Notes: generated by a model not told the origin, from the sequence alone. A DNA stretch of 64,000 nt from an uncultured Acidimicrobiia bacterium (GCA_964594235.1 CAZQMF010000004.1:9718-73717), one strand, 5' to 3'. Positions 1 through 31,925 are shown, counted from the first letter of the stretch. Translations and numbers: made by a program.

Positions 1-129
1 GGGCCCCGTTACGGGCGAGGTTCGTCGGGGTCATCGCCGCGCGGGCTCGTTCCACACGGCGCAGGACGCGGACCGTTCCCCAGGCGCCGGCGAGGACACC
101 GGCGACGAACCACCACAGTCTCACGATCA
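1..129 (-). CDS. hypothetical small membrane-anchored protein, N-terminal part only (runs off window start)
   Basis: ATG at 129-127, 10 nt after the rarA stop. Translation MIVRLWWFVAGVLAGAWGTVRVLRR has one hydrophobic helix. Third-position GC is about 85 percent. Absent from the ORF track because it is truncated. Confidence 0.4.
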
Positions 130-139
130 TGCGAGCAGG

Positions 140-1471
140 TTAGCGCTCCCTCTGATCCTCCCGCCTGGAGTTCCAGGCGTCGAGGCGCTCGGCGATCTCC
201 CGCTCGTCTCCCTGGGTTCCCGGCTCGAAGAACCGGTCACCCACCGATTCGTCCGGAAGATACTGCTGCACGACGAAGTGGCCCTCGAAGTTGTGGGGGT
301 ATCGGTATTCAGTCCCGTGACCGAGCTTCTCTGCTGCACGATACGAGGCATCCCTGAGATGCTCCGGCACCTCGGCACCCGCGGTCGCCTCGACCGCGGC
401 TTTCGCCTTTGCGATCGTGGCAGCGATGGTGTTCGACTTCGGAGACGTCGCGAGGTAGGTCGCCGCATGGGTCAGGGCGTAGCCCGCTTCGGGGAGACCG
501 ACGTAGGCGAGCGCCTGAGATGCCGCCACTGCGAGCGGGAGGGCGTGCCGGTCGGCCAGCCCGATGTCCTCTGAGGCAAAGATGATCATCCGTCGTGCGA
601 TGAACTCTGGATCCTCACCCGCCTCGAGCATCGTGTGCAGCCAGTAGGCGGCGGCGTCGGGGTCCGAGCCACGCATACTCTTGATGAACGCAGAGATGAC
701 GTCGTAGTGCCGGTCGCCGGACTTGTCGTAGCGCACGATGCGCCGTTGCAGCGCTTCGGCGACGTCTGCCTCGGTGATCGCGGTTCTCCCTGCTCCGATC
801 ACGAGACCGGCGGCGACTTCGAGCCCGTTCAGCGCAAGGCGAGCATCCCCACCAACCCGTTCCGCCAGCGCCCTGCGGGCGGAATCATCGATGGTGAGGC
901 CCTGTCTTCCGAGACCCCGTTCCGGGTCGGCCATCGCACGTTCGAGCAGTACCTCGAGGTCCTCGGGGTCGATGCGTTCCAGCCGGAACAGGCTCGCCCT
1001 CGAGATCAGTGGAGAGTTCACTTCGAAGAACGGATTCTCCGTCGTGGCCCCGATGAGGATGATCGTTCCGTCCTCTACTCCTGGAAGCAGCGCATCCTGC
1101 TGCGACTTCGAGAAGCGGTGGATCTCGTCGAGAAACAGCACGGTTCTGCGCTCTTCCTCGCCAAGCCGCCGTTCGGCCTCATCGAGAATCCGCCGCACGT
1201 CCTTGACACCAGCCGCCGTCGCGGACAGCTGCTCGAACCAGGCATCGCCCGAAGCGAGGCGAGCGAGGGTGGTCTTGCCCGTTCCGGGGGGACCCCAGAG
1301 GATCATCGACATGGGACGGCCCGACTCGACCAACCTACGGAAGGCAGCACCTTCCCCGACCAGGTGCCGCTGTCCAACGACCTCGCTCAGTACGGCCGGG
1401 CGCATGCGCGCTGCAAGCGGGGCCACCCTCGCTTTCACCTCCGCACGGCGGGCATCGAACAGATCTCCCAT
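140..1471 (-). CDS. rarA: replication-associated recombination protein A (AAA+ ATPase, RarA/MgsA)
   Basis: 443-aa ORF with Walker A GPPGTGKTT, Walker B LFLDEIHRF, and an MgsA-type C-terminal domain (HYDVISAFIKSMRGSD). Confidence 0.95.
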   Translation of the reverse strand: MGDLFDARRAEVKARVAPLAARMRPAVLSEVVGQRHLVGEGAAFRRLVESGRPMSMILWGPPGTGKTTLARLASGDAWFEQLSATAAGVKDVRRILDEAERRLGEEERRTVLFLDEIHRFSKSQQDALLPGVEDGTIILIGATTENPFFEVNSPLISRASLFRLERIDPEDLEVLLERAMADPERGLGRQGLTIDDSARRALAERVGGDARLALNGLEVAAGLVIGAGRTAITEADVAEALQRRIVRYDKSGDRHYDVISAFIKSMRGSDPDAAAYWLHTMLEAGEDPEFIARRMIIFASEDIGLADRHALPLAVAASQALAYVGLPEAGYALTHAATYLATSPKSNTIAATIAKAKAAVEATAGAEVPEHLRDASYRAAEKLGHGTEYRYPHNFEGHFVVQQYLPDESVGDRFFEPGTQGDEREIAERLDAWNSRREDQRER

Positions 1472-1472
1472 G

Positions 1473-3233
1473 TCAGCCCTCTGCCTTCACCTCCGGCCTG
1501 AGAGCGATACCCAGTTCCCGAAGCTGGTCGTCGTCCACCGGGGTCGGCGAACCGCTCATCGGATCCACTCCGGTCTGGGTTTTGGGAAATGGGATCACCT
1601 CCCGAATAGACCTCTCTCCTTGCAGGATCGCGAGGAGGCGGTCGATACCCACGGCGAACCCCGCGTGGGGCGGCGTACCAAACCGGAGTCCTTTCACGAA
1701 CCAGCCGAACCGTCGCTCGGCTTCCTCCTGCCCGATACCGAGGATGTCGAAGACCTGCTCTTGAACCACCGGATCGTGAATCCTGACGCTCCCCGATCCG
1801 AGCTCGGATCCGTTGAGGACGAGGTCGTACGACCTCGAGATCGCCGTTTCGGGTGAGGTGCGCATCTCGTTCACGTCGACGGGAGCGGTGAACGGGTGGT
1901 GGGCCGGAGACAGGCTTCCATCGTCGTTGACGTCGAAGACAGGAAAGTCGATGACCCAGAGGAACGCGAGTGCCTCGTGATCTCTCGGCTGCCCCAGCTC
2001 GAGACGGAGTTGCCCGAGCACCACGCTCGCCTTCTTGGAGTCGTCGGCGACGAGCAGTATCAGATCGCCGGGATGTGCATCGAACGCCTGGACGATGTGT
2101 GTCTGCTCCTCATCGGACAGGAACTTGGCGACCGCCGAGCGGAGCCCCGTCTCTTCAACTGCGAGCGAGATGAGACCTTTCGCTCCCAACTCACGAGCCC
2201 GGTCGGTGAGCGCGTCGAGGGCGGATCGGGACAGGCCGACGTTGCCCGAGTTGATGCCCTTGACAGCGCCCCCTGCAGCGACCGTCGATGCAAACACACC
2301 GAAGGCCGAGTCCGCGACGAGGTCGCTGATGTCGTGGATCTCCATACCGAAGCGAAGGTCGGGCTTGTCGGTCCCGTAGCGTTCCATGACGTCGGCGTAG
2401 GTGAACCGCCGGAAAGGAGTCTGCACGGGGACGCCCCTCACTCGTTCGACGACGGCGCCGATGACGGCCTCGAGCGTTTGAAACACACCTTCTCTGCCCC
2501 AGAAGGCGCCTTCGAGGTCGAGCTGTATGAACTCCAGCTGACGGTCGCTTCTGAAGTCCTCGTCGCGGTAGCACCGGGCAATCTGGTAGTACCGGTCAAC
2601 CCCGGAGACCATGAGGAGCTGCTTGAACAGCTGAGGCGACTGCGGCAGTGCATAGAAGGATCCCTTGCGAAGACGTGACGGAACCAGCACGTCTCGTGCG
2701 CCTTCAGGTGTCGATCGGATCAGCGTGGGAGTGTCCACGTCCATGAATCCCAACCCATCGAGCACCTCCCTCATCGCCCGAAAGGCCGCCGATCGAGCCC
2801 GGAGGTTCGCCGCCATGCGAGGCGAGCGCAGATCCAGGTACCGGTACTCCAGTCGGGTTCGCTCATCGACGTCCACTCGATCGTCGAGCATGAACGGCAG
2901 CGTCTCGGCAGCAGACAGCACAGTCAGCTCGTCGACTGCCACCTCGACCATCCCCGTGACCATGTCCGGGTTCTCGGTTCCGTCAGGGCGCGCCCGCACA
3001 ACACCTCTCAGCGAAACAACGTACTCGAGCTTCAGACTCCTGGCGTCAGGGATGCTCGCAGGGTCGATGACCGCCTGTACGATGCCCGACGCGTCCCGAA
3101 GGTCGATGAAGATGATGGCGCCGTGGTCGCGGCGGCGACCCACCCACCCGGCGATCCGGACGGTATCCCCGACGCGCTGTTCCGTCACGTGCCCCGCGTA
3201 CGTGTCCCGATATTCCACGTCTACCTGAGCCAT
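1473..3233 (-). CDS. aspS: aspartate--tRNA ligase
   Basis: ORF 1473-3311. AspRS homology begins at MAQVDVEYRDTYAG. ATG 3233 is preceded by GAGGAGG. Class II motifs include FRDED-like CYRDEDFR and GFAVGIDRL. Overlaps the hisS stop. Confidence 0.95.
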   Translation of the reverse strand: MAQVDVEYRDTYAGHVTEQRVGDTVRIAGWVGRRRDHGAIIFIDLRDASGIVQAVIDPASIPDARSLKLEYVVSLRGVVRARPDGTENPDMVTGMVEVAVDELTVLSAAETLPFMLDDRVDVDERTRLEYRYLDLRSPRMAANLRARSAAFRAMREVLDGLGFMDVDTPTLIRSTPEGARDVLVPSRLRKGSFYALPQSPQLFKQLLMVSGVDRYYQIARCYRDEDFRSDRQLEFIQLDLEGAFWGREGVFQTLEAVIGAVVERVRGVPVQTPFRRFTYADVMERYGTDKPDLRFGMEIHDISDLVADSAFGVFASTVAAGGAVKGINSGNVGLSRSALDALTDRARELGAKGLISLAVEETGLRSAVAKFLSDEEQTHIVQAFDAHPGDLILLVADDSKKASVVLGQLRLELGQPRDHEALAFLWVIDFPVFDVNDDGSLSPAHHPFTAPVDVNEMRTSPETAISRSYDLVLNGSELGSGSVRIHDPVVQEQVFDILGIGQEEAERRFGWFVKGLRFGTPPHAGFAVGIDRLLAILQGERSIREVIPFPKTQTGVDPMSGSPTPVDDDQLRELGIALRPEVKAEG

Positions 3234-4444
3234 TCCGAAACCTCCTCGACGGGCACCTCGCGTTGGTCTCCCGTCGCCATATCTCTCACAGTCACCGTGC
3301 CACGGTGCCACTCGTCCCCGATCACGAGAACCTTCGATGCTCCCCGGCGAGAAGCGATCTTGAACTGGGCTTTGACAGAGCGCCCGTCCACGTCATCGTC
3401 GACCCGGAACCCTTCGGCGCGCAAATCGGAGGCCAGTCGGGTCGCCTCCGCCCGCATCTGTTCGTCGGCCACCACGACAAAGGCGTCGAGTGCCCCGCCT
3501 TCGACGAGCTCACCTCGGGCCAGCACGATCCGATCGAGTCCCAGTGCGAGGCCGACGCCAGGAATGGGGGGACCTCCGATCGACTCAGACAGGCCGTCGT
3601 ACCTTCCACCACCTCCGACCGCGTTCTGTGCTGCGTCGAGGTCGGTGGCGATGTACTCGAAGGCCGTTCTCGTGTAGTAGTCGAGACCGCGCACCAGGTG
3701 CGGATCCTCTTCGAAGGGAACACCTACCACCCCGAGTGTCTCCTTCACGGTGCGATAGTGGGCGGTGCACGCGTCGCACAGGTGATCGACGGGCGTCGGG
3801 GCGTCACCGAGGATGGGTCTGCAGATCTTGCAGTCGAGGACCCTCAATGGGTTGCTGTCGATGCGTTGCTTGCTGTCCTCGCACAGCTGGTCCTCTCGGG
3901 CCCTCAGGTACACCCTCAGTAGTTCCTGGTACGCGGGCCGGCAGACGGGGTCGCCGATCGAGTTGACGGTTACCGTCACATCATCGAGGCCCACCTCCCA
4001 CAGATAGCGGTAGCCGAGTTCGATGACCTCCGCATCGGCGAGTGGCGAATCGCTTCCAAGGTATTCGACGTCGAGTTGGTAGAACTGCCGTCTCCTGCCC
4101 GCCTGGGGGCGCTCGTAACGAAACATCGGCCCCCAACTCGCTACCTTGCGCACGCCCGACCCACCTGCTTGTTGGTGTGCCCGCATGACCGAAGGTGTCG
4201 CTTCGGGTCGGAGGGTCAGTGATCGCCCCCCTTTGTCGGAGAAGGTGTACATCTGCTTCTGCACGATCTCGGTGTCTTCCCCCGAACCTCTCGAGAAGAG
4301 ATCGGTGGCCTCGAAGAGCGGAGTGATGATGAGGTCGTAGCCGAACCGCTCGGTGATCTGATCCCAGATGCGCAGCATCCGCCGCCACGTTCTCGACGCG
4401 GGTGCGAGGATGTCGTCTGTGCCTTTGGGTGCGCGGATGGTCAT
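3221..4444 (-). CDS. hisS: histidine--tRNA ligase
   Basis: 407 aa. HisRS motifs FRYERPQAGRRRQFYQ and GGGRYDGL, plus a C-terminal anticodon-binding domain. Confidence 0.95.
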   Translation of the reverse strand: MTIRAPKGTDDILAPASRTWRRMLRIWDQITERFGYDLIITPLFEATDLFSRGSGEDTEIVQKQMYTFSDKGGRSLTLRPEATPSVMRAHQQAGGSGVRKVASWGPMFRYERPQAGRRRQFYQLDVEYLGSDSPLADAEVIELGYRYLWEVGLDDVTVTVNSIGDPVCRPAYQELLRVYLRAREDQLCEDSKQRIDSNPLRVLDCKICRPILGDAPTPVDHLCDACTAHYRTVKETLGVVGVPFEEDPHLVRGLDYYTRTAFEYIATDLDAAQNAVGGGGRYDGLSESIGGPPIPGVGLALGLDRIVLARGELVEGGALDAFVVVADEQMRAEATRLASDLRAEGFRVDDDVDGRSVKAQFKIASRRGASKVLVIGDEWHRGTVTVRDMATGDQREVPVEEVSEWLR

Positions 4445-5076
4445 CGAAGATCTCGGAGGAACGGGTTGCTGCGGCGTTCGGCCCGCATCGTAGTCGTGGG
4501 TCCGTGCCCCGGATACACGGCCGTCTCGTCCGGCAGCGGCAGGATCTTCGAGCGCATACTCTCGAGCAGCTCCGGGAGGTCGCCACCTGGCAGGTCCGTG
4601 CGCCCTATCGAGCCCGCGAAGAGATGATCGCCGGAGAACAGGCGTCCCTCGACGAGAAAACAGCAGTGTCCCGGCGTGTGACCGGGTGTGTGGATGACCT
4701 CGATGTCGAGACCCCCGAGGAGCAGGCGCGTTCCGCCAACCAGCCGCTCAACCCGCTCCAAGAGCCGTGGCTGTTCATAGGTGCCCAACAACGCTGCGAG
4801 TTGTGTCGCCGGGTCGAATGTGAGGAAGTCGTCGTCAGGATGGACGTAGGCAGCGATCCCTGCCTGCTCGCACACATCCGGTGCGCCGCCGCTGTGGTCC
4901 ACATGTCCGTGGGTGAGAAGGAGCGCCGCGGGAGCGAGCCCGTGTCGCTCGACGAGTGCAAGCACGGCATCGGGATCGGGGGGTGCGTCAACGATGACAC
5001 ACGGTCCACCCGGTTCACGCGCGACCACATAGGTGTTCGTTGCGGCCAACCAGAGTGTGTCGGAGGCAATCAGCAT
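4441..5076 (-). CDS. MBL-fold metallo-hydrolase (glyoxalase-II-like)
   Basis: THGHVDHSGG (HxHxDH motif) and a later HTPGHTPGH. 4-nt overlap with the hisS start. Same position as the glyoxalase-II-like gene next to hisS in mycobacteria. Confidence 0.85.
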   Translation of the reverse strand: MLIASDTLWLAATNTYVVAREPGGPCVIVDAPPDPDAVLALVERHGLAPAALLLTHGHVDHSGGAPDVCEQAGIAAYVHPDDDFLTFDPATQLAALLGTYEQPRLLERVERLVGGTRLLLGGLDIEVIHTPGHTPGHCCFLVEGRLFSGDHLFAGSIGRTDLPGGDLPELLESMRSKILPLPDETAVYPGHGPTTTMRAERRSNPFLRDLR

Positions 5077-5109
5077 CCTCGGTAGGGTACAGGGACGCCG
5101 GAGATCGTT

Positions 5110-6543
5110 CTACGGAGTGCACCCCGGTGCATCCGCGGGTACCTCGCGCCAGATACGCGGTTGAGGGATGAACTGGTCGGCTGCGGCGGGATCGAACGAG
5201 AACACGCCCTGGATCGAGTCGTTCATCGGCCGGAAGTGCACATAGGACCGCTGACCCTGGTTGCCGCCCTCCCCGTAGATGGTCCCGTAGACCACCGAGT
5301 TGTTTTCCGTCGCTACGGTTCCCGCCGAGTACCCGAGGAAGTGGATGTCTTCGGTGCCGGTCATCGTGAACCCCTGGGCGAGAGACAGCGAGTTGACGGA
5401 CCCGGCCACCACCACGGCCACCGACACGGGCGTGTCGGTGGAGTCGGTGGTGACGTTCAGCCACTTGGTGATGTCGGCGTCCCCATCGGGAACGTAGATG
5501 ATGACGTCGCCGTGGAATTCGGTCTTGCTGAAATCGATCGAGACGTCGCCGTCTGGCATCCGGTAGCTCGTGGTCTGACCGGCGTATCCCAGCTCGGACG
5601 GGTTCCAATCGCTATCCGGCACCGCCTCTTTGTGTGGGGAAGCGCTCCACTCGAACGTCGGCAACAGCAGGGGAGCCACCGGCGTCCAGTCCACTCCTGT
5701 GAGCACTTCGTTGACACTGCCGAGGTCGCCTCCGGGCGGGGAGGGGTCGCGCATGTTCAGGCTGCCGACGATCGTCGGCTCCTTCAGATAGCTCGAAGAT
5801 CCTCCGATCGAGACGTCCGACTGGTAGAGGGTGTTCTTCTTGTCGTCGGTGATGTCCCCGTTCACCCTCACCGGGCCCGAGAAGCTACTCGCCGCGTTCG
5901 AGCTGATGGTCATGTCACCGACCACGCTGACGGCTCCTGTTCCGGGCCAGGGGATGTCGTTTGGGAGAACGGTCGTGGAGTTGTCGACTGCGAAATCGGC
6001 GGCACTGTACACGTCACCCCAGATCTTCTTGTTGTTGCCACCTGTGTACCCGGCAGTTCCGGTGAACACTGCGAAGTCGAACCCACCTCCGTAGGGACGA
6101 AGTTCGATCTCGAAATCGATCTTCTTCTGTGAAGAGAGACTCACGTCGTGTCTCGGAGCCCACCCCCAGGCCTCGATCCGGTAGCGCAGGTCGAACCCGG
6201 GGGTCTTGGTCGCTCTGACCCAGTACTCCCCAAGGCGATCCGATGCCGTGCCGGAGGAGTCCAGCTCCGTGTAGACGCACGCGCTCCCTTCGGGACTCGT
6301 CGAGTAGACAGCACCAGAGGTTTCCAGCGAGTCGCGAATCGTCGCGTCGTTGGCGAGCAGGTACATCATCTCTCGTGCGCCGGCCTCTGCGGCGTTGATT
6401 GCGGCCGTCGACACGCGATCCTGCGTCGCTTGATTGAGTTCGTGCGTACTGATCCCGTACCAGAGGGCGGCAAGGATGAACACGACGAACGAGATCATCA
6501 GAGCCGTGATCAGCCCGAATCCGTCCTCACGTTCGAATCTCAT
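5110..6543 (-). CDS. PilX/GspK-like minor pseudopilin with large unassigned C-terminal domain
   Basis: N-terminus MRFEREDG/FGLITALMISFVVFILAALWYG is a prepilin-like leader plus hydrophobic helix lacking Glu at +5. Start overlaps the upstream stop (TGATG at 6541-6545). Confidence 0.6.
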   Translation of the reverse strand: MRFEREDGFGLITALMISFVVFILAALWYGISTHELNQATQDRVSTAAINAAEAGAREMMYLLANDATIRDSLETSGAVYSTSPEGSACVYTELDSSGTASDRLGEYWVRATKTPGFDLRYRIEAWGWAPRHDVSLSSQKKIDFEIELRPYGGGFDFAVFTGTAGYTGGNNKKIWGDVYSAADFAVDNSTTVLPNDIPWPGTGAVSVVGDMTISSNAASSFSGPVRVNGDITDDKKNTLYQSDVSIGGSSSYLKEPTIVGSLNMRDPSPPGGDLGSVNEVLTGVDWTPVAPLLLPTFEWSASPHKEAVPDSDWNPSELGYAGQTTSYRMPDGDVSIDFSKTEFHGDVIIYVPDGDADITKWLNVTTDSTDTPVSVAVVVAGSVNSLSLAQGFTMTGTEDIHFLGYSAGTVATENNSVVYGTIYGEGGNQGQRSYVHFRPMNDSIQGVFSFDPAAADQFIPQPRIWREVPADAPGCTP

Positions 6544-7094
6544 CAGCAGCTGCCTCCCGGGCTGGGTGTCCAGATGTTCCTCCCCGACACCTCGGTTTCG
6601 GCGAGGCGGGGACCGATCCGGTCAGTCGGATCGGCGTCCGACCAGATGCTGATGGTCACGACCTTGCCCTCACTCGGAGTTCCGCCGGTCGACCCTTGCG
6701 TCTGAAAGAGCGGCTGAGACGACGCGTTGACAACGTCGTCGATCACGGTTCGCCACGTCGAGCCTCCGTCATCCGAGCGCTGGAGTGCCCCATCCACCAG
6801 CGTGTACACGATGTGTTGCTGGGTCTTCTCGGATCCGACATATGCCCTGGTGTCGAAGTCCAGGGTGTTGGACGTGTTGCATGGCAGTGGTTCATAGATC
6901 TGGTCCGCCGACCGGAGCTCGCGCGTGATCTGCTTGAGGACGAGTCGCGAGCTGTCGTTGGACGCTGCGTTGCCCTGGAAGTCCTTCGTCACAGTGAAGC
7001 TCGTTGACAACGCAGTCCCAAACACCGCAGCCGCTATCAGCATCAGCGCCATGGCGATCAGCAGTTCAACGATGCTGATCCCTCGCTCGTTCAT
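6543..7094 (-). CDS. prepilin-type N-terminal cleavage/methylation domain protein (PilW/GspJ-like)
   Basis: MNERG/ISIVELLIAMALMLIAAAVFG has the canonical G-[FI]-[ST]-x-x-E class III signal. 183 aa. Confidence 0.7.
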   Translation of the reverse strand: MNERGISIVELLIAMALMLIAAAVFGTALSTSFTVTKDFQGNAASNDSSRLVLKQITRELRSADQIYEPLPCNTSNTLDFDTRAYVGSEKTQQHIVYTLVDGALQRSDDGGSTWRTVIDDVVNASSQPLFQTQGSTGGTPSEGKVVTISIWSDADPTDRIGPRLAETEVSGRNIWTPSPGGSC

Positions 7095-8998
7095 GACAGC
7101 TCCGGATTGATATAGACGGCGGTGGCTTGCACGCCGCCGGCTGAGAATGTCAACGTCAGGTCATACAGCACCGACTTCACCTCACTACCCGGCGTCGTCT
7201 CACCAAACTCAGCGGCAGCAATCTTGTCGACGACCCGGTAGCTGATCGAGCCAATCACGATGCTCTTCGCGGACACGGTGTTCGAGCGAACTTCACCGCT
7301 GGTGTACTGCTGGGTCGATCCGACACACATTCCGTTGACGGTGACGTTTCCCTTCACCGTGTAGTCGAGCTGTGGCAGCCCAACCGTCGACGTCGTGAAG
7401 TCCTCGTCGATGACGAGCGGCTCGGAATCGCAGTTGGCGATACTCTCGTAGTCTTCGAAGATCCGTGTGTAGGAGTTTCCGTCCCACACGTCGATCGTCA
7501 CATCCCCAGTCTTCACGTCAATACCCGGGGTGAGCGCCGCATAGTACTCGCCTGCCTCGAGCGGCGCGACCGAACCCTCGTTGGAGATCCCGGGCAGTCC
7601 GACCACCACCCAACCTCTGAATTTTGGTGTGAGGCTGCCGATCACGTTGTCATCGAGGAGGTCGACCTCCTCACCTTTCCAGTCGAACTGGGCGGTCGCC
7701 TTGCGCAGACCGGTCGCTGAGACATCCTGACGGTCGACCTGGCCGCTCATCAGCATCGCTGACGCCTGGTCATGGTCTCCGTACCGGTAGAACGTGAACT
7801 CGTAGGCCGTTGTGCCGAGAGGCGAAGCTTGGTCGATGTAGGCCTGTGCCGGATCCCCCGCCCAGTCTTCGACACGAGTCATCGCGGTCCTCCCGGCCCC
7901 TTCGACCTCCATCGAGGCATGGGGCAGGTCATCGGTACTGTCGAGCGCGGCGGCCCCGCCCGGAGTGAGAATCCTCGTGTGGTTCTTCAGCGTGGCACCA
8001 CCCGACGACTCGGCAATGGTGACGCCGTCCTCAGTCGTGTTGAGCTGAGTCAGATCGATCTGAGCACTGATCGGATAGTTGACAGGAGCCGAAGACGTAC
8101 CGTCATCGTCGGCCAGCAGATCGGTCACTTGAGGATCAAGCGTGGCAAGCCGCACATCGTCGGTGCTGCTCGACCCGAGGACCCCATCGGGTCCCGCCCC
8201 GGTCCAGTAGCCAGATGTTCCTTCGAGCCGCGCCTCACCGACCGACACGTAGTCCGAGGTTGCGGTCAGCCGCACGGAGGGCATCGACAGAAGGATCGAC
8301 TCGTCTTGCGTAGTGTTGTAGTCCATGCCCCAGCCTCCGATGCCTGTGATACGGCCCTGGATCTGACCGAAACCTCCGTCGAGGTTCACCTCTGCCGAGA
8401 TGAACGGCTGTGACGGTTCCGTGAAGGGGCTCACATAGGAGCTGAGACGGACTTCTCTGCGATATCCGCTGGGTGCGTTCCAGCGCACCACTGCGGTGAT
8501 GCGCCGGTACTTCTCCGTCGCGGGGTCGCTGTTGTCGGTGCGAACCGACGTGATGAACAGATACCGGTCGAAGACCGTCTTGTCCCTGACCACCTGCTGA
8601 TGAAACGACAGGAAAGGATCAAACGTGCTTCCCGTGGCGAACACTACGGGTTCACCGCCAAACTCGTACCCGCCGCTGATGGCGGTGATTTCGGATGGGA
8701 AGTCGGCGGTGAACGAAGAACAGCCGACACCCTGTGGCGGGTCGGCAGGACTAGAAGGTTCCGTGCAGTTCGCGCTGTTCGCGTCGACGGTCAAGCCCAT
8801 GTTCGACCACTCCAACGACCGTGCGCGTTCCATCAGCTCGGATGCGAACGCGGAGCCCGCAGACTGGCGCTTGGTCTCGGACAGCACTCTCGAACCCGAG
8901 TCGATGCTTCGCAACATGACAAGCACGGCCCCAAAAATGATGACCAGTGCAACGATCGCCTCGGTGATCGTGAATCCATCTTCGCGCGAAAGCCGCAT
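7091..8998 (-). CDS. prepilin-type N-terminal domain protein (PilV-like), 635 aa with unassigned C-terminal region
   Basis: The ORF track starts at TTG 9025. ATG 8998 gives MRLSREDG/FTITEAIVALVIIFGAVLV, a typical short prepilin leader. GGAG lies 14 nt upstream. Confidence 0.65.
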   Translation of the reverse strand: MRLSREDGFTITEAIVALVIIFGAVLVMLRSIDSGSRVLSETKRQSAGSAFASELMERARSLEWSNMGLTVDANSANCTEPSSPADPPQGVGCSSFTADFPSEITAISGGYEFGGEPVVFATGSTFDPFLSFHQQVVRDKTVFDRYLFITSVRTDNSDPATEKYRRITAVVRWNAPSGYRREVRLSSYVSPFTEPSQPFISAEVNLDGGFGQIQGRITGIGGWGMDYNTTQDESILLSMPSVRLTATSDYVSVGEARLEGTSGYWTGAGPDGVLGSSSTDDVRLATLDPQVTDLLADDDGTSSAPVNYPISAQIDLTQLNTTEDGVTIAESSGGATLKNHTRILTPGGAAALDSTDDLPHASMEVEGAGRTAMTRVEDWAGDPAQAYIDQASPLGTTAYEFTFYRYGDHDQASAMLMSGQVDRQDVSATGLRKATAQFDWKGEEVDLLDDNVIGSLTPKFRGWVVVGLPGISNEGSVAPLEAGEYYAALTPGIDVKTGDVTIDVWDGNSYTRIFEDYESIANCDSEPLVIDEDFTTSTVGLPQLDYTVKGNVTVNGMCVGSTQQYTSGEVRSNTVSAKSIVIGSISYRVVDKIAAAEFGETTPGSEVKSVLYDLTLTFSAGGVQATAVYINPELS

Positions 8999-9078
8999 GC
9001 CATAGCTATCGGCTCCGACAGCCAAACCACTTAGCCATAAAGTGAGGTGGTCTCGATGGCTCCCGAAGTGTCTAGTCC

Positions 9079-11238
9079 TCAGCGCGGCACGAGCCGATAT
9101 GCGTCGTAGACACCTTCGATACCTCTGAGACCAACAACCAGGCGATCGAGCTGACCGGGGTCCGACAGCTCGACCTCGTAGCGGAGTAATGCGGTCCGAT
9201 CACTGCTCGTCGTCGACGACGATGCGCGGACGTCACCCCCGACCTCCGAGATCCATTCGGTGACGTCCCGAAGCATCCGCGGGCGGTCCAGCGCTTCGAT
9301 CTGAATCCACACCGAGAACCGTCCTACCCTGTCCGGCGCCCACGCTACGTCGATCATTCGCTCCTCACCCAGTGCGTGGATGTTCGTGCAATCCGAACGA
9401 TGCACCGAGACTCCACGCCCGACCGTCACGAACCCGACGATGTCGTCGCCAGGAACGGGGGCACAGCATCGGGCGATACGCACCCAGACGTCCTCCAGAC
9501 CTTCGACGATGATGCCGACTCCGCCGTCGGAGCGCGGCTGGACCGGCGGCAGCTCAGGCAGAACGGCCTCGGCCGCCTCCTCTTCTTCCGGTCTGGCAAG
9601 ACGCACGAGCCGGGCAACAACAGTGGAACCGGCGACGCCTCCTTCCCCGACAGCGATGAACAGCGAGTCGATGTCCCGTTGGCCCATTCGCCCGGCGACC
9701 TCTCTCAGAAGCTCGTCGCGCCGGTTCGCGTGTAGTCCGAGGCCTTCCTTGCGGAGGAGCGCCAGAACCGTCTCTCGTCCTTTCTCGAGCGCGGCAACCC
9801 GGCGCTCCTTTCCAAACCACTGCCTGATCTTCGCCCTCGCTCTCGAGGTCCGAACGTACGCCAGCCAGTCTCTGCTGGGACCGGCGTCCTGTGCCTTGGA
9901 AGTGACCACCTCGACGATGTCTCCGGACTCCAGTCTCGTATCGAGCGGGACCAACCGGCCGTTGACCTTCGCGCCGATACACCGGTGTCCCACTTCGGTG
10001 TGGACGCTGTACGCGAAGTCGACAGGCGTGGCCCCCCTTGGAAGCGTCTTCACCTCACCTTTCGGTGTGAGAATGAACACCTCGTCCTGGTAGAGATCAA
10101 GCTTCAGGCCCGCCAGGAACTCCGTCGGATCCTCGTACTCGTCTCTGAGAAAACGCATGTCCGCGATCCACGGAAGCGACTCGGCCGCCTCGCCTTCCTT
10201 GTATCGCCAGTGTGCGGCGATTCCGAACTCGGCACGTTCGTGCATGTCCCTCGTGCGGATCTGAACCTCCAGCGGGCCTCCACCCGGCCCGATCACCGTC
10301 GTGTGCAAGCTCTGGTACAGGTTGAACTTGGGCATCGCGATGTAGTCCTTGAACCGTCCATGTACAGGGGGCCACGTGGAGTGGATCACTCCGAGTACCG
10401 CGTAGCAGTCCCGAACGTCTTCGACAATCACCCTGATCCCGATGAGATCATGGATGTCCTCGAACGGAAGGCCGCTGGCCACCATCTTGCGGTAGATCGA
10501 GTATTGATGCTTCGGTCGACCACTCACATCACCCTTGATACCGGCAGAGTCGAGGAGTTCCCGCACATGGTCGATGACATCTCGCAGAAATGCTTCTCGC
10601 ATCGGTGCGCGCTGCTCGAGAAGGGCGTTGATCTCGGCGTTCCTCCTCGGATACATGATGGCGAAACACCTGTCCTCCATCTCGTGCTTGATCTCCTGGA
10701 CTCCGAGCCGGTGTGCCAGCGGGGCGTATACCTCGAGGCTCTCGCGGGCGATCCGCTGTTGTTTCTCCTCGGGGAACGGCCAGATCGTACGCAAATTGTG
10801 CAAACGGTCCGCGAGCTTGATCAGCAACACCCGAACGTCCTTCGCGAGGGCGACGACGAGCTTCCTGATCGTCGCGGCCTGCGCCTCTTCCCGCGATCCG
10901 AACTTGATCAAGTCGAGTTTCGTGACGCCGTCGATGAGTTCGGCGACGTGACCACCGAATTGCGCGGCCACCTGGTCGAGTGTCAGGTCGGTGTCCTCGA
11001 CCGTATCGTGGAGCAGTGCTGCGCACAGCGTCTCGGCATCGAGGCCGTAGTCGGCGAGGATCGCTGTCACCGCGACAGGGTGCGTGATGTAGGGATCGCC
11101 CGTTTGCCGCATCTGTCCCTCGTGGCGATCCCTGGCGAGCAGATAGGCCTCGGACAGCAGCGAGGTGTCGGCGGTGGGATGGTGGGCGCGAAACGAGTCG
11201 AGAACCTTCTCCATCCCCTCTTGCGAGAGGTCAGCCAT
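9079..11238 (-). CDS. relA: bifunctional (p)ppGpp synthetase/hydrolase RelA/SpoT family
   Basis: 719 aa. HD hydrolase domain (HDTVEDT), RelA/SpoT synthetase domain, TGS and C-terminal ACT-like regions. Confidence 0.95.
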
Positions 11239-11749
11239 ACGTCACGAGCGCGTGCAGGTCGGCACCATTCAGAGAAGCTCTGCCGCCGAGAAACGCCAAC
11301 TCGATGAACACCGCGACGCCGATCACCTCGGCGTCCAGTCGTTCGACCAACCTGATAGCCGCTGCCGCGGTTCCGCCGGTTGCGAGCACATCATCGACGA
11401 CCAGCACCCTGTCGCCCCGGCGAAGTGCGTCCTTGTGCATCTCGAGTGCGTCGGTCCCATACTCCAGCTCGTATGTCTCCCGAATGACGTCAGCAGGCAG
11501 CTTGCCCGGCTTGCGAATCGGCACGAATCCTGCACCGAGCTGCTCGGCGACCGGGGTCGCGAGAATGAATCCACGAGCCTCGATACCGACGACCTTCGTG
11601 ACGGACCCTCGTTCGTAGGGAGCACAGAGCTGGTCGATCAAGGCGGAGAATGCATCTGGATCGGCGAGGACTGGTGTGATGTCCTTGAAGACGACACCCG
11701 GCTTCGGGAAATCCGGGACGTCACGAATCAGATCGGCGTACTCGAACAC
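11231..11749 (-). CDS. apt: adenine phosphoribosyltransferase
   Basis: 172 aa. PRPP-binding motif [13 protein letters not shown]. 8-nt overlap with the relA start. Confidence 0.95.
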
Positions 11750-21189: not shown

Positions 21190-22245
21190 TTATGCCCCAA
21201 TTCTACCGGGAGCCCGTTCGATCGCTTGCTCGTACAGCATGATCCAGCGAGGGAGCACCCGAGTCCAATCGAACACGTTCCCCCTGGCTCTCGCAGCGCG
21301 CCCCAGGTGACGGACTCGTTCAGGGTTCGCCAGCAACTCGAGGAGGACATCTGCAAGGCGCTCGCTGTCATTGACAGGCACATGTTCGGCGATCCCACAG
21401 GCAACGCTCACGAATGCCGGTAGGTCGGTGCACACGACAGCGCACCCGGCGGCCATGGCTTCGATCAGGGTGATGCCGAAGCTCTCACCTCCCGTGTTCG
21501 GTGCACAGAAGACCGACGACGAGGCGAGAACTTCACGCTTGCGAAGGTCGGAGACGGTGCCCTCAAACCTGACCCCGGCCGCTCCAATCTCCCTCTTTGC
21601 GCCGACGACGAGCAGCTCCGCGTCCGGTACCGACGCGCGTACTCTCGGCCACGCGGCCAGCAGCACATCGAGGCCCTTGCGGGGGTCGTCGCGCCCCACG
21701 AACGCGACGCGGTGTTCAACTCGTTCCTGCTCTGCGAACCCTCCGACGTCGACGGCGTTTGGCACGATCTCGACGCCCGGGGCGAACTTTTCGACGGCCA
21801 TGGCCGCCTCGGCACTGACCGCCGTCAGCACTTCGATTCGCTCCATGAGATGCGCGAGAAGTGGACCACCGAACTTGTACACTGCTCTGACCACGGCAGC
21901 CGGTTCGGCGTGAAACGTCCCCACGGTGGGTACATAGGTGCCGATCCACGCGGCCGGCCCGACGACTGGAAGCAGCGGTTCGTGCACATGCACGACCTCC
22001 GCGCCGTCTATCGCCTCTTTCACACGCTGGATCGCACCCGGCTCCAAACACACCGGTGCCACCGCGTCGTTCGATTCGATGTTGGTGGTCCCTCCGACAG
22101 ACGTCCAGGTTCCATCGGATTCGCCAGGACCGATCAGCTTCACGCTGTGTCCGGCCCGAGCGAGTTGGTCTCGCAGTTGCAGTGCCTGCTCCTGCACACC
22201 TCCGTGTCTATCGAGCGCATACGGGCTGACGATCGCGAGTCTCAC
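21190..22245 (-). CDS. pimA: GT4 family glycosyltransferase, PimA-like
   Basis: 351 aa GT-B fold with [15 protein letters not shown] (E-x7-E). Sits with the acyltransferase and pgsA as in the mycobacterial PIM locus. The symbol is assigned by synteny only. Confidence 0.7.
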
Positions 22246-23180
22246 GGCGCTCTCCTATCGGAGGGCCAGTTCGGCTGCACGATGTGCCACTGCTCGGGTG
22301 CTCGCCGAATCAGCTCCTCGAGTGCCGCGGCAATCCTCCGAGTCCCCTCAACGATCCGCTCCTCCACCGTTCCCGAGCTGGGCATTTCGACGGGCGCTTC
22401 GACCACCAGTCGGTGGCCACGCCCTTTCTTGAAGTATGCGGCGACCGGGAACACGGGGACGCCGTGTCGCATTCCCAGCGCGGCGGCTCCTGCGGGCATC
22501 GACGTTACTTCGCCGAAGAACTCGACATCCACTCCCCCGTCCTTGACGTTTCGATCCATGACCAGTGCGACGGCGGCCCCGCGGTCCAGCGCCTGCCCCA
22601 GCCGGTTCATGATGTTCGGTTCGTTCGCCAGTACCACGTCGATGCCGAGCTGACGTCGTATGTCGATGAACCAGTCCACAACATCGCTGTCCGGTAGCGG
22701 TTCGGCGACCGCGAGGAGTTCCAGACCGATGTCGTGTGCAACGCTGCCCGCCACTTCCCAGTTGCCGATGTGGGGTAGCGCGAAGATCATCCCGGTTCCT
22801 TCGTCGCGCGCCGCCTCTGCCCGTTCCACTCCATCTCTGTCGATGTGGCGCAGGATCGCCGGTACGCGATGAGGTCGCACCCAGAACGCCTCTGCCCAGT
22901 ACCGGCCATATGCTCCGAACGCTCTCCTGGCGGTGTCTTCGACTTCCCACTCGGATCCGATTGCCCGACTCACGTGGCGGATGTTCATCCGGCGTCGCCG
23001 ACCCGCGCGTTCGAACGCGAGGCGTCCGGCTCGCTCCCCCACGACACGCACGATCGGCTCCGGCATCCACCCAGCCATGGCGATCCCCGCTCGGTACAGC
23101 GCGTTCACGCGTCGAGTCGTTTCCAGCCGATCCAGAACCGCTGAACGACGGTGATCCACACGAGCGCCACCATCGCCCAC
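22242..23180 (-). CDS. lysophospholipid/PIM acyltransferase (HtrB/PatA-like)
   Basis: HIGNWE acyltransferase motif. An alternative start, GTG 23108, overlaps the pgsA stop (GTGA), so the start is uncertain. Confidence 0.8.
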   Translation of the reverse strand: MGDGGARVDHRRSAVLDRLETTRRVNALYRAGIAMAGWMPEPIVRVVGERAGRLAFERAGRRRRMNIRHVSRAIGSEWEVEDTARRAFGAYGRYWAEAFWVRPHRVPAILRHIDRDGVERAEAARDEGTGMIFALPHIGNWEVAGSVAHDIGLELLAVAEPLPDSDVVDWFIDIRRQLGIDVVLANEPNIMNRLGQALDRGAAVALVMDRNVKDGGVDVEFFGEVTSMPAGAAALGMRHGVPVFPVAAYFKKGRGHRLVVEAPVEMPSSGTVEERIVEGTRRIAAALEELIRRAPEQWHIVQPNWPSDRRAP

Positions 23181-23698
23181 AACATCGGTCCGATCAGCCC
23201 GGACAAGATCCCGGCACCGAACAGGATCAGACGCTCGGCCCTCCCCATGATCCCACCTCGACCATCAACGCCACCGGTCTCTACTTTCGCCCGCAGGTAC
23301 GAGATCAGGAGCGAACCGCCAAGCGAGACAGTACACAGCGCGACCCATGCCGGTGTATCCGAGACAGCCAGTGCCAGACCGGTCCACATCGCCGTTTCTT
23401 CCACTCTGTCCGTCACCGAGTCCAGCAGCGCTCCCCGTGCCGAGACGCTCCCTCGTGCTCTGGCGACCGCTCCGTCGAGGGCGTCGATCGCCGATCCCAC
23501 CAACACGAAGCCGACGCCGAGTTGCAGTCGTCCGGCTGCGATCAGCGCTGCCCCTGCAAGAGCAACGATCAATCCGAACAGGGTGACGTGCCACGCGCGC
23601 ACCCCGACTCGGGCGAGCGCCTTCCCGATCGGCGCGAACATGGCATTGGCCCTCCGGCGGGCCTTGAGTTCGATCATGGGTGCAGCAACGTACCACAC
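23105..23698 (-). CDS. pgsA: CDP-alcohol phosphatidyltransferase (phosphatidylinositol-phosphate synthase-like)
   Basis: Motif DALDGAVARARGSVSARGALLDSVTDRVEE matches D-G-x2-A-R-x8-G-x3-D-x3-D. Start uncertain (GTG 23698 or ATG 23677). Confidence 0.8.
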   Translation of the reverse strand: MWYVAAPMIELKARRRANAMFAPIGKALARVGVRAWHVTLFGLIVALAGAALIAAGRLQLGVGFVLVGSAIDALDGAVARARGSVSARGALLDSVTDRVEETAMWTGLALAVSDTPAWVALCTVSLGGSLLISYLRAKVETGGVDGRGGIMGRAERLILFGAGILSGLIGPMLWAMVALVWITVVQRFWIGWKRLDA

Positions 23699-31868: not shown

Positions 31869-31925
31869 GCCCACCTCATTTGCTCTCGTCTCGTGTAGCG
31901 TAAACGAAGGCGTTCCAATCGCCGA

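What the first reader, a model, noticed from the sequence alone, without database searches (positions are those of the whole stretch)
5110..9025. Orphan PilV/PilW/PilX-like minor-pilin operon inserted into the relA-hisS housekeeping block
Three consecutive minus-strand ORFs are translationally coupled (4-nt overlap at 7091-7094; TGATG stop/start at 6541-6545). Each opens with a class III prepilin signal: MRLSREDG/FTITEAIVALVIIF (from ATG 8998), MNERG/ISIVELLIAMALML, and MRFEREDG/FGLITALMISFVVF. The last lacks Glu at +5, as GspK/PilX-type minor pilins characteristically do. The order long-short-long resembles pilV-pilW-pilX or gspI-J-K tip-complex sets. Yet the window contains no major pilin, prepilin peptidase, PilB/PilT ATPase or PilC platform. 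Two members are far larger (635 and 477 aa) than ordinary pseudopilins. Their Thr/Ser/Asp/Gly-rich C-terminal regions match no family I recognise. The trio lies 53 nt after relA, where Mycobacterium tuberculosis has ppiB between relA and the glyoxalase-II-like/hisS pair. It therefore looks like an accessory insertion inside a very conserved synteny block. It is a candidate for an undescribed filament-tip or adhesin module in a monoderm actinobacterium.
Basis: partly seen in the sequence, partly recalled or inferred. Interest (0 to 1): 0.7.

Follow-up and report, generated by a model that had tools for sequence, protein, structure and literature searches.

The report
Type IV pilus tip-pilin trio
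Three coupled genes between relA and hisS of an uncultured Acidimicrobiia bacterium encode the tip (minor-pilin) subunits of a type IV pilus; they are not orphans, because the full pilus machinery lies 10 kb downstream, just outside the window.

Summary
Three minus-strand ORFs (635, 183 and 477 aa) are translationally coupled, and each opens with a prepilin signal. The third lacks Glu5.

The trio is a conserved module of Acidimicrobiia. All three families co-occur in the same order in about 25 loci. In some MAGs the trio directly abuts pilB-pilB2-pilC-pilin-pilMNO-pilD.
- A resembles PilV/GspI at its N-terminus and carries a roughly 430-aa all-beta module with no detectable relatives outside this family.
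- B resembles PilW/GspJ/ComGF.
- C is a PilX/GspK-class pilin with a beta-solenoid. Its best structural match is Thermus ComZ.

The "orphan" reading is an artefact of the window edge. A 418-kb contig that is 99.75% identical to the window continues past position 1. It carries PatA_N, pilB, a second ATPase, pilC, two pilins, an A24 peptidase and pilMNO. pilB starts 5.1 kb beyond the edge, on the same strand.

The relA-MBL slot varies among relatives. It can be empty or hold this trio, a different prepilin trio, or both.

Verdict: a new variant of the known minor-pilin tip complex, of moderate interest.

The parts
7091..8998 (-). Gene A: 635-aa modular minor pilin of the PilV/GspI/ComGE class. 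It has a leader of residues 1-8 ending in Gly, then Phe+1 and Glu+5.
   Evidence: Translation. Gene callers use ATG 8998. In the family alignment G8, F9 and E13 are nearly invariant. Sub-threshold NCBIfam hits across 41 members: ComGE 38, PilV 35, XpsI 34, HpsB 29, GspI 22. Pfam N_methyl matches 27 of 41.
8414..8974 (-). Pilin module of A (about residues 9-195): a long N-terminal helix followed by an antiparallel sheet, with the Cys78/Cys93 pair.
   Evidence: AF2 model with pLDDT 79.7: helix 11-60, strands 104-189. C78 and C93 are invariant.
7094..8404 (-). C-terminal module of A (about residues 199-635): all-beta, acidic (pI 4.05), no known family or fold match. Proposed tip-displayed ligand-binding module.
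   Evidence: AF2 secondary structure. Foldseek against PDB and BFVD gives only low-probability hits with TM about 0.1. No Pfam or PDB sequence hit. phmmer against 1.84 billion representatives finds only 16 proteins, all with the same architecture or fragments of it. Composition.
6543..7094 (-). Gene B: 183-aa minor pilin of the PilW/GspJ/ComGF class. Leader MNERG, Glu+5, conserved C-terminal GRN-W motif and terminal Cys.
   Evidence: Translation. Family alignment A4: G5, E10, G171-R172-N173 and C183 invariant. N_methyl matches 16 of 16. Sub-threshold NCBIfam: PRK10557 11/16, ComGF 10/16, HpsC 7/16, GspJ 4/16. Weak PDB profile hit to the Thermus pilin TTHA1219.
5110..6543 (-). Gene C: 477-aa PilX/GspK/ComZ-class cap pilin. 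Leader MRFEREDG, no Glu at +5.
   Evidence: Translation. In 32 family members the Gly is invariant, +5 is never Glu, and an AEAG motif is conserved. Pfam hits in family members: Bactofilin 21/32, DUF7305 16/32, PilX_N 10/32. AF2 pLDDT 85.6. Foldseek top hit is ComZ 6qvi, E 1.3e-7, probability 1.0.
5179..6081 (-). Beta-solenoid insert of C (about residues 155-455). The last pilin strand (residues 458-468) follows at 5140-5172.
   Evidence: DSSP of the AF2 model shows short regular strands over 159-436, then strand 458-468. After ComZ, Foldseek returns ice-binding proteins and Caldicellulosiruptor tapirins. The ComZ topology is described in PMC6561018.
7091..7094 (-). ATGA stop/start overlap between A and B (translational coupling).
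   Evidence: Sequence.
6541..6545 (-). TGATG stop/start overlap between B and C.
   Evidence: Sequence.
9079..11238 (-). relA, the upstream boundary of the slot. An 80-nt spacer separates it from A's ATG, with no terminator-like hairpin in the spacer.
   Evidence: Pfam; sequence; terminator scan.
4441..5076 (-). MBL-fold hydrolase gene, the downstream boundary of the slot. It starts 33 nt after C's stop, with no terminator between, so read-through into MBL-hisS-aspS-mgsA is likely.
   Evidence: Pfam; sequence; terminator scan.

Best explanation
A, B and C are the core minor pilins of a type IV pilus in a monoderm Acidimicrobiia bacterium. They are the functional counterparts of GspI-GspJ-GspK, PilV-PilW-PilX and Thermus PilA2-PilA3-ComZ.

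Proposed mechanism:
- The overlapping stop/start codons are taken to give roughly equimolar synthesis. The overlaps are shown; the coupling is inferred.
- The hydrophobic N-terminal helices insert in the membrane. The A24 prepilin peptidase encoded 10 kb downstream cuts after Gly8 (A), Gly5 (B) and Gly8 (C). This is inferred from the motifs.
- The three helices bundle into a heterotrimer. C lacks Glu5, so it needs no salt bridge to a subunit above it and sits on top as the cap. This is inferred from what is established for GspK and PilX.
- The complex primes polymerisation of the major pilin (a 157- or 163-aa pilin in the downstream cluster) by PilB, PilC and PilMNO, and ends up at the pilus tip.
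- At the tip, C's beta-solenoid and A's 430-aa all-beta module are exposed. They act as the adhesin or ligand-binding head and the tip 'plug', filling the role PilY1 has in Proteobacteria. This step is inferred, and the ligand is unknown.

The trio sits in a variable slot between relA and the MBL-hisS genes. It forms one arm of a pilus locus that is interleaved with housekeeping genes.
For: - Class III signals are present and conserved. Gly-1 is invariant in the C and B families and nearly invariant in A. Glu5 is kept in A and B and absent from all 32 C members.
- The A-B-C order is conserved in about 25 loci.
- The trio directly abuts pilB-pilB2-pilC-pilin-pilMN-pilO-pilD in L012, L013, L014 and L029, and follows pilB in L034.
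- A contig 99.75% identical to the window carries PatA_N, pilB, a second ATPase, pilC, two N_methyl pilins, Peptidase_A24 and pilM/N/O downstream on the same strand.
- Class assignments are consistent: A to PilV/GspI/ComGE/HpsB, B to GspJ/ComGF/HpsC/PRK10557, C to PilX_N/DUF7305 and the ComZ fold.
- AF2 gives a long N-terminal helix plus a sheet for both A and C.
- Purifying selection resembles that on the housekeeping flanks: dN/dS is 0.10-0.18 for the trio and 0.09-0.14 for the flanks.
- Literature: ComZ is a tip pilin with a solenoid inserted between the penultimate and last strands, and it binds PilA2 (PMC6561018). Cyanobacterial PilX solenoids have been proposed as a PilY1-like plug (bioRxiv 10.64898/2026.02.12.705559). 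Modular pilins are presented at pilus tips (PMC8179133).
Against: - No curated HMM threshold is reached by the window's own proteins. N_methyl scores 13 and 20.9 bits against a cut-off of 21.2, C has no hit, and all PilV/GspJ/ComG matches are far below cut-off.
- B's fold was not predicted, and no heterotrimer model was made.
- The Foldseek match to ComZ has high probability but a low TM-score (0.30), so only the architecture is shown to be shared.
- No GspH/FimU-like fourth core pilin is in the operon.
- No PilT-type retraction ATPase was seen in the downstream cluster.
- The machinery is shown in a 99.75%-identical contig, not in the window's own record.
- dS is saturated (1.1-1.7), so the dN/dS values are rough.
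- Nothing about expression, processing or tip location has been tested.
Confidence: 0.8

Rival explanations
1. The trio tips a competence pilus. The ComZ-like protein C, with A, would be the extracellular DNA receptor of a DNA-uptake pilus rather than an adhesin. This is a functional sub-variant of the main explanation.
For: C's best structural match is ComZ, a DNA-binding competence tip pilin. A and B score best against the ComGE and ComGF competence pilin models, though below threshold. Cyanobacteria have a dedicated Com-type PilX/PilV set.
Against: A's module and C's solenoid are strongly acidic, with pI 4.05-4.1. No comEA, comEC or dprA was seen near the trio or the pilus cluster. The machinery has PilMNO and two MshEN-type ATPases, which looks like T4aP/MSHA rather than Com. 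After ComZ the solenoid matches are ice-binding adhesin-like domains and cellulose-binding tapirins.
Confidence: 0.2
2. The trio forms the tip of a short pseudopilus that drives protein secretion or cell-wall traversal, like the T2SS GspIJK complex. No long adhesive pilus would be involved.
For: The three-gene I-J-K-like set has no PilY1. Weak profile hits include GspI, XpsI and GspJ. JGI annotated some A homologues as 'type II secretory pathway pseudopilin PulG'.
Against: The host is an Actinomycetota member (MAG labels). By general knowledge of the phylum it has no outer membrane, so no secretin is expected. The linked machinery is PilB/PilC/PilMNO plus T4a-type pilins with short leaders. 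The GspIJK-type hits are all sub-threshold and share only the N-terminal helix.
Confidence: 0.07
3. The three proteins are ordinary membrane-anchored surface proteins with signal-anchor helices, unrelated to pili. The prepilin-like N-termini would be coincidental.
For: The window's own proteins miss every curated HMM cut-off. Most of A has no recognisable family.
Against: Gly-1 and Glu5 are conserved across deep divergence in the A and B families, and Glu5 is consistently absent from C. The trio is physically linked to T4P machinery in several MAGs and in the near-identical contig. C has the ComZ fold. In the whole window only these three ORFs carry the motif at their N-terminus.
Confidence: 0.03

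Closest known systems
Thermus thermophilus competence minor pilins PilA2-PilA3-ComZ (ComZ structure 6QVI; PMC6561018)
   Same: A GspK-class pilin carries a large beta-solenoid placed before the last pilin strand, which points to a tip location. It is encoded next to small GspI/J-like pilins in the same order. ComZ is C's top Foldseek hit (E 1.3e-7, probability 1.0). B's profile weakly hits the Thermus pilin TTHA1219.
   Different: Sequence identity to ComZ is only 10-12% and the TM-score 0.30. The host is a monoderm actinobacterium. The PilV-like partner here is 635 aa with an extra 430-aa module, whereas PilA2 is small. The modules are acidic, and DNA binding has not been tested. No PilA1-like fourth pilin is in the operon.
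Type II secretion tip complex GspI-GspJ-GspK (Korotkov and Hol 2008, cited in PMC6561018 and PMC8179133)
   Same: Three consecutive genes in I-J-K order. The last subunit lacks Glu5 and carries an inserted bulky domain. The complex is expected to be a heterotrimer held by the N-terminal helices that caps and primes the filament.
   Different: GspK's insert is alpha-helical and sits between strands 3 and 4; here it is a beta-solenoid near the C-terminus. GspI is about 120 aa and A is 635 aa. No secretin or outer membrane is expected, and the linked machinery is PilB/PilC/PilMNO. Only sub-threshold profile similarity was found.
[quoted passage not shown]
   Same: The pilV-pilW-pilX gene order is shared. 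So is a priming and tip complex with a Glu5-less PilX on top. Some C-family members hit the PilX_N motif (10 of 32).
   Different: No FimU-like gene and no PilY1 gene were found at the locus. The bulky tip parts are instead built into the pilins themselves (A and C).
Cyanobacterial PilX (beta-solenoid)/PilV sets and HpsA-D (bioRxiv 10.64898/2026.02.12.705559)
   Same: PilX homologues carry a triangular beta-solenoid resembling ice-binding proteins, proposed to replace PilY1 as the tip plug. Alternative PilX/PilV sets occur per genome, which parallels the two trio types seen in L035. A and B weakly hit the HpsB and HpsC models.
   Different: The phylum and cell envelope differ. No polysaccharide-secretion (hps) context is present. 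A's large module has no counterpart described there.
Modular pilins of Streptococcus sanguinis (PilB with vWA, PilC with lectin; PMC8179133, PMC9934059)
   Same: A monoderm T4P in which a bulky functional module is grafted onto the C-terminus of a small pilin module and presented at the tip. This is the architecture AF2 predicts for A.
   Different: A's module is not vWA, lectin or any recognised domain. There is no sequence relationship.

Membership tests
Type IV pilins / prepilins (class III signal peptide, PF07963 / TIGR02532) | A short, charged leader ending in Gly, followed by about 20 hydrophobic residues | tested here: met
   The leaders are MRLSREDG|, MNERG| and MRFEREDG|, each followed by a hydrophobic stretch. 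Gly is invariant in the C and B families and nearly invariant in A.
Type IV pilins / prepilins (class III signal peptide, PF07963 / TIGR02532) | Glu at +5 of the mature protein, except in cap subunits | tested here: met
   A has FTITE and B has ISIVE, both with Glu5. Glu5 is nearly invariant in A (E13) and invariant in B (E10). C has FGLIT without Glu, as do all 32 family members.
Type IV pilins / prepilins (class III signal peptide, PF07963 / TIGR02532) | Score at or above the curated HMM cut-off | tested here: not met
   PF07963 scores 13.0 bits for A and 20.9 bits for B against a cut-off of 21.2; C has no hit. TIGR02532 scores 12.3 bits for B against 16.3. Across the families, N_methyl matches at E < 0.1 in 16 of 16 B members and 27 of 41 A members.
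Type IV pilins / prepilins (class III signal peptide, PF07963 / TIGR02532) | Pilin fold: a long N-terminal alpha-helix packed on an antiparallel beta-sheet | tested here: met
   AF2 gives helix 11-60 and sheet 104-189 for A, and helix 7-65 and sheet 79-150 for C. B was not modelled.
Type IV pilins / prepilins (class III signal peptide, PF07963 / TIGR02532) | The genome encodes a prepilin peptidase, an assembly ATPase and a platform protein | tested here: met
   Shown in contig_25735, which is 99.75% identical to window 1-11470. It has Peptidase_A24, two MshEN/T2SSE ATPases, T2SSF and PilM/N/O. Direct linkage is also seen in L012-L014 and L029. It is not shown in the window's own record.
Type IV pilins / prepilins (class III signal peptide, PF07963 / TIGR02532) | Cleavage by PilD, N-methylation and incorporation into filaments | not testable with these tools
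   This needs biochemistry or proteomics.
PilX / GspK / ComZ class (cap minor pilin) | No Glu5 | tested here: met
   Position +5 of C is Thr, and no member of alignment A1 has Glu there.
PilX / GspK / ComZ class (cap minor pilin) | PilX_N (PF14341) or GspK profile match | tested here: inconclusive
   The window's C has no hit. Ten of 32 family members hit PilX_N (best E 3.5e-6) and 16 of 32 hit DUF7305.
PilX / GspK / ComZ class (cap minor pilin) | A bulky domain inserted into the pilin fold (in ComZ, a beta-solenoid before the last strand) | tested here: met
   The AF2 model has a solenoid-like run at 159-436 and a terminal strand at 458-468. Foldseek ranks ComZ 6qvi first with E 1.3e-7 and probability 1.0, though TM is 0.30.
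PilX / GspK / ComZ class (cap minor pilin) | Forms a heterotrimer with I- and J-like pilins at the filament tip | not tested
Only conserved synteny and translational coupling support this.
PilV / GspI / ComGE class (protein A) | Profile match at the family cut-off and a small (about 120-190 aa) pilin | tested here: not met
   TIGR02523 scores 17.6 bits against a cut-off of 52.2, covering only residues 7-61. Sub-threshold hits are consistent across the family: ComGE 38/41, PilV 35/41, XpsI 34/41. A is 635 aa. It works like a PilV/GspI subunit, but membership in those families is not shown.
PilW / GspJ / ComGF class (protein B) | Profile match at the family cut-off | tested here: not met
   ComGF scores 15.3 bits against a cut-off of 80. 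Across the B family the best E-values are 5.2e-5 for PRK10557 (11/16), 2.9e-4 for ComGF (10/16) and 1.2e-3 for GspJ (4/16), all below cut-off.
PilY1 / PilC tip adhesin | A non-pilin protein with a C-terminal beta-propeller, encoded with the minor pilins | tested here: not met
   No such gene lies in the trio, in the window or in the downstream cluster. A's module gave no propeller match.

The most novel reading that the evidence does not exclude
The relA-MBL slot may be a cassette site where Acidimicrobiia swap or stack alternative tip complexes: none, this trio, an unrelated prepilin trio, or both. One pilus machine would then be refitted with different tip specificities. Under this reading, A's 430-aa all-beta module is a previously unseen fold that serves as the tip adhesin or receptor-binding head and replaces PilY1. 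Only 16 representative clusters of this module exist among 1.84 billion proteins, and it has no PDB or Pfam match.
Probability: 0.3. Interest if true: 0.55.

Novelty: new variant of a known kind. Interest (0 to 1): 0.35.

Why it matters
Type IV pili of Actinomycetota, and of the abundant uncultured Acidimicrobiia in particular, have hardly been studied.

This locus gives a concrete three-protein tip complex for such a pilus. It extends the ComZ / cyanobacterial-PilX design, in which a solenoid-bearing cap stands in for PilY1, to a monoderm phylum. It also adds a large lineage-specific module on the PilV-like subunit, which is a candidate new adhesin fold.

The variable occupancy of one housekeeping slot by alternative trios hints at modular exchange of pilus tip specificity.

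None of this overturns current models. It also serves as a caution that an 'orphan' call made from a fixed window can be an edge artefact.

Tried and rejected
- Pfam and NCBIfam on the window's three proteins gave only sub-threshold N-terminal hits. Family-wide scans were needed.
- A PDB sequence-profile search found nothing useful for C or A, and only weak pilin N-termini for B.
- Foldseek of the whole A model against PDB and BFVD returned only spurious porin and phage hits with TM about 0.1. The model could not be cropped to the C-terminal module.
- A's C-terminal module shows no internal repeats.
- No promoter-like site and no convincing terminator lie around the trio. The window has no tRNA or Rfam match.
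- I tried to link pilB to trio-bearing contigs by matching contig lengths in a PilB homologue search. No match appeared among the 120 hits listed.
- An exact-pattern scan of metagenome contigs with the end of L035 found nothing.
It was circumvented by way of cluster membership.
- I considered a recent horizontal insertion and rejected it. GC content matches the flanks, the arrangement is conserved down to 63% relA identity, and dN/dS is like the flanks.
- I considered a pseudogene or relic and rejected it. The ORFs are intact, the coupling is kept, and selection is purifying.

Full report
**1. What is in the window**

Three minus-strand ORFs lie between relA (9079-11238) and an MBL-fold hydrolase gene (4441-5076). 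The hydrolase gene is followed by hisS, aspS and mgsA. Upstream of relA are apt, secF, secD, tgt and queA.
- A is 7091-8998 (635 aa from ATG 8998).
- B is 6543-7094 (183 aa).
- C is 5110-6543 (477 aa).

The A/B junction is an ATGA overlap and the B/C junction is TGATG. GC3 is 0.75-0.81, like the neighbours, and GC content is indistinguishable from the flanks.

The N-termini read MRLSREDG|FTITEAIVALVIIFG, MNERG|ISIVELLIAMALML and MRFEREDG|FGLITALMISFVVF. A six-frame motif scan finds such N-terminal signals only in these three ORFs; one further match is internal to a glycosyltransferase. The proteins are acidic (pI 4.3-4.6) and rich in T/S/D/G (36-37% against 24-29% in the neighbours). Each has an even number of Cys: 4, 2 and 2.

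The only correction concerns the spacer. The 53-nt distance to relA refers to TTG 9025. With ATG 8998, the start that gene callers chose and that matches close homologues, the spacer is 80 nt.

**2. The trio is a conserved three-family module**

Homologue searches gave 38 relatives of C and 48 of A. Almost all come from metagenomes or MAGs, and those that carry a name are Acidimicrobiia. A scan of one genome per GTDB species found 17 loci, all of Acidimicrobiia type.

In every locus long enough to judge, A-, B- and C-type genes occur together in that order. Four contexts recur:
- relA | trio | MBL-hisS: the window, L016, L017, L018 and L026. L028, from a complete 1.7-Mb chromosome, has relA followed by the trio, but its downstream sequence is masked.
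- rhodanese | trio | TRAM methyltransferase: L011, L015/L019 and L020-L024.
- trio | pilB-pilB2-pilC-pilin-pilMN-pilO-pilD: L012-L014 and L029.
- pilB | trio: L034.

Direct adjacency to a complete type IV pilus (T4P) gene set in distant members (25-30% identity) is the strongest functional link.

**3. What each protein is**

*Protein C.* In 32 family members the cleavage-site Gly is invariant, +5 is never Glu, and an AEAG motif follows the helix. Family members hit Bactofilin-type beta-helix (21/32), DUF7305 (16/32) and PilX_N (10/32).

The AF2 model (pLDDT 85.6) has a helix at 7-65 and a pilin sheet. A long run of short strands follows, then a final strand at 458-468. Foldseek ranks Thermus ComZ (6qvi) first with E 1.3e-7 and probability 1.0. 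Ice-binding proteins and Caldicellulosiruptor tapirins come next. ComZ is a GspK-like tip pilin with a solenoid inserted before the last strand (PMC6561018). Cyanobacterial PilX proteins share this design and have been proposed to replace PilY1 as the tip plug.

*Protein B.* Sixteen orthologues were extracted from the loci. They share invariant Gly-1, Glu5, a C-terminal GRN-W motif and a terminal Cys. All hit N_methyl. Sub-threshold NCBIfam hits concentrate on J-class pilins: PRK10557, ComGF, HpsC and GspJ. A PDB profile search weakly reaches the Thermus pilin TTHA1219.

*Protein A.* Gly-1, Phe+1 and Glu5 are nearly invariant. Sub-threshold hits concentrate on I-class pilins: ComGE 38/41, PilV 35/41, XpsI 34/41, HpsB 29/41 and GspI 22/41.

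AF2 (pLDDT 79.7) gives a helix at 11-60, a sheet at 104-189, and then a roughly 430-aa all-beta region. That region has no Pfam or PDB sequence match and no credible Foldseek match in PDB or BFVD. An exhaustive phmmer search of 1.84 billion representatives found only 16 relatives, all with the same architecture or fragments of it. A is therefore a 'modular pilin' in the sense of PMC8179133, carrying an uncharacterised, lineage-restricted module.

**4. Not an orphan**

The window itself has no T4P machinery. However, the window's exact A and mgsA proteins belong to clusters that include an ENA contig of 418,359 bp.

That contig (ERZ25039500 contig_25735; loci L119 and L120) is 99.75% identical to window 1-11470, with a single gap. 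It continues past window position 1 with these genes:
- orf62, alaS, ruvX and yceG;
- a PatA_N-domain gene;
- pilB (561 aa, MshEN+T2SSE), a second MshEN/T2SSE ATPase (511 aa) and pilC (T2SSF);
- two N_methyl pilins (157 and 163 aa; SDEG|FTLVE and SDNG|FSLVE);
- a Peptidase_A24 gene, pilM, pilN and pilO;
- orf164, then aroC, aroK and aroB.

pilB starts 5,128 nt beyond the window edge, which is 10.2 kb downstream of C on the same strand. The identical PilB sequence also occurs in NCBI and in JGI samples of the same series as the trio contigs. More distant relatives show the same yceG-aroE-PatA_N-pilB arrangement (L037 and L042).

The 'orphan' claim fails.

**5. The slot is variable but the trio is kept**

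In mgsA-centred metagenome loci from relatives, the relA-MBL slot takes four forms:
- empty: L048, L053, L057, L062, L067 and L077;
- the window-type trio: L045;
- a different prepilin trio: L040, L041, L056 and L061. This is A1 543 aa (DDDG|FTIVE), B1 226 aa (GDGG|FTLIE) and C1 514 aa without Glu5;
- both trios in tandem: L035 and L036.

Between the window and L035, the orthologous trio is 70/82/81% identical. The flanks are 75-80% identical. dN/dS is 0.175/0.111/0.099 for the trio against 0.09-0.14 for the flanks; dS is saturated, so the values are rough. The trio is thus an old, selected occupant of an accessory slot, not a recent insertion or a relic.

**6. Mechanism**

Shown by tool results: the signals, their conservation, the coupling, the synteny with T4P machinery, and the ComZ-like architecture of C.

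Inferred from established knowledge of the GspIJK, PilVWX and ComZ-PilA2 systems:
- PilD cuts after the conserved Gly.
- A, B and C bundle through their N-terminal helices.
- C, which lacks Glu5, caps the complex.
- The complex primes polymerisation of the 157/163-aa pilins and stays at the tip.
- C's solenoid and A's module are exposed there as the binding head and plug.

The ligand is unknown. The acidic surfaces and the absence of com genes nearby make a DNA receptor less likely than adhesion, but they do not exclude it.

No terminator-like hairpin separates relA, the trio and MBL-hisS (spacers of 80 and 33 nt). Co-transcription with housekeeping genes is therefore possible, but it was not tested.

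**7. Comparison and novelty**

The system works like the I-J-K / PilV-W-X tip complex. In C's architecture it comes closest to Thermus ComZ and cyanobacterial PilX. In A's architecture it comes closest to the modular pilins of S. sanguinis.

Membership in the curated PilV, GspJ, ComG or PilX_N families is not established, because all matches for the window's proteins fall below cut-off.

The literature search found T4P genes mentioned only in passing for Acidimicrobiia (PMC12008989). It found nothing on their minor pilins, and no paper mentions DUF7305.

I rate the finding a new variant of a known kind. The new elements are the giant PilV-like subunit, the three-gene set without PilY1 or FimU, and the split locus with a cassette-like slot. 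Interest is moderate (0.35).

Noticed in passing
L035 3572-7399 and L036 1802-5629 (relatives; not in the window): A second, unrelated prepilin trio sits in tandem in front of the window-type trio in the same relA-MBL slot. It is 543 aa (DDDG|FTIVE), 226 aa (GDGG|FTLIE) and 514 aa without Glu5. Other relatives have only this alternative trio (L040, L041, L056, L061) or an empty slot (L048, L053, L057, L062, L067, L077).
   Followed up: partly
L120 9081-10004 (5 kb beyond window position 1 in the 99.75%-identical contig): A 307-aa PatA_N (PATAN) domain gene overlaps the pilB start by 4 nt. The same gene precedes pilB in L037, L042, L121 and L122. PATAN-domain regulators interact with the T4P motor in cyanobacteria (bioRxiv 10.1101/2021.06.11.447907), so this may be a built-in regulator of the pilus.
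   Followed up: no
L120 10001-19634: The whole T4P cluster is wedged into the conserved housekeeping array between yceG (mltG) and aroC-aroK-aroB. It has two PilB-like ATPases, both with MshEN domains, and no PilT-type retraction ATPase. The A24 peptidase is called at only 189 aa and lacks the N-terminal A24_N_bact domain seen in L012.
   Followed up: no
window 21190-23698 and 29943-32198: A GT4 glycosyltransferase, a lipid-A-type acyltransferase and a CDP-alcohol phosphatidyltransferase lie in a row near thrS. From memory, this resembles the mycobacterial pgsA1-acyltransferase-pimA phosphatidylinositol-mannoside cluster.
   Followed up: no
window 35380-59285: This is a dense catabolic cluster. 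It has three molybdopterin xanthine-dehydrogenase/CO-dehydrogenase-family enzymes with their FAD and 2Fe-2S subunits. It also has a 1179-aa dihydropyrimidine-dehydrogenase-like oxidoreductase, two amidohydrolases, two OTCase-like genes, a carbamate-kinase-like gene and two PLP enzymes. It probably degrades purines, pyrimidines or other N-heterocycles.
   Followed up: no
L016 10001-15168; proteins P0075 and P0084: Some A homologues (810-820 aa) carry an extra insertion of about 190 aa in the C-terminal module. L016 also has an additional 172-aa gene with thrombospondin type-3 (TSP3_bac) repeats between C and the MBL gene.
   Followed up: no
L015/L019 3972-6161; L119 2473-4381: B and C are fused into one 714-aa call in L015, and A is split into 82 + 517 aa in L119. 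These are probably frameshift errors in long-read assemblies rather than real differences.
   Followed up: partly
L027, L029, L030, L033: Contigs carrying the Acidimicrobiia-type trio, and in L029 the linked pilB-pilC, are deposited in MAGs labelled Verrucomicrobiales or Burkholderiales. Mis-binning is the likely cause.
   Followed up: no
window 5110-8998: The trio proteins have even Cys counts. In A, C78 and C93 are invariant and C523 and C558 are also present. B has C72 and the C-terminal C183. C has C89 and C475. The terminal Cys of B and, in the closer clades, of C is conserved. This suggests disulfide-stabilised extracellular domains.
   Followed up: partly
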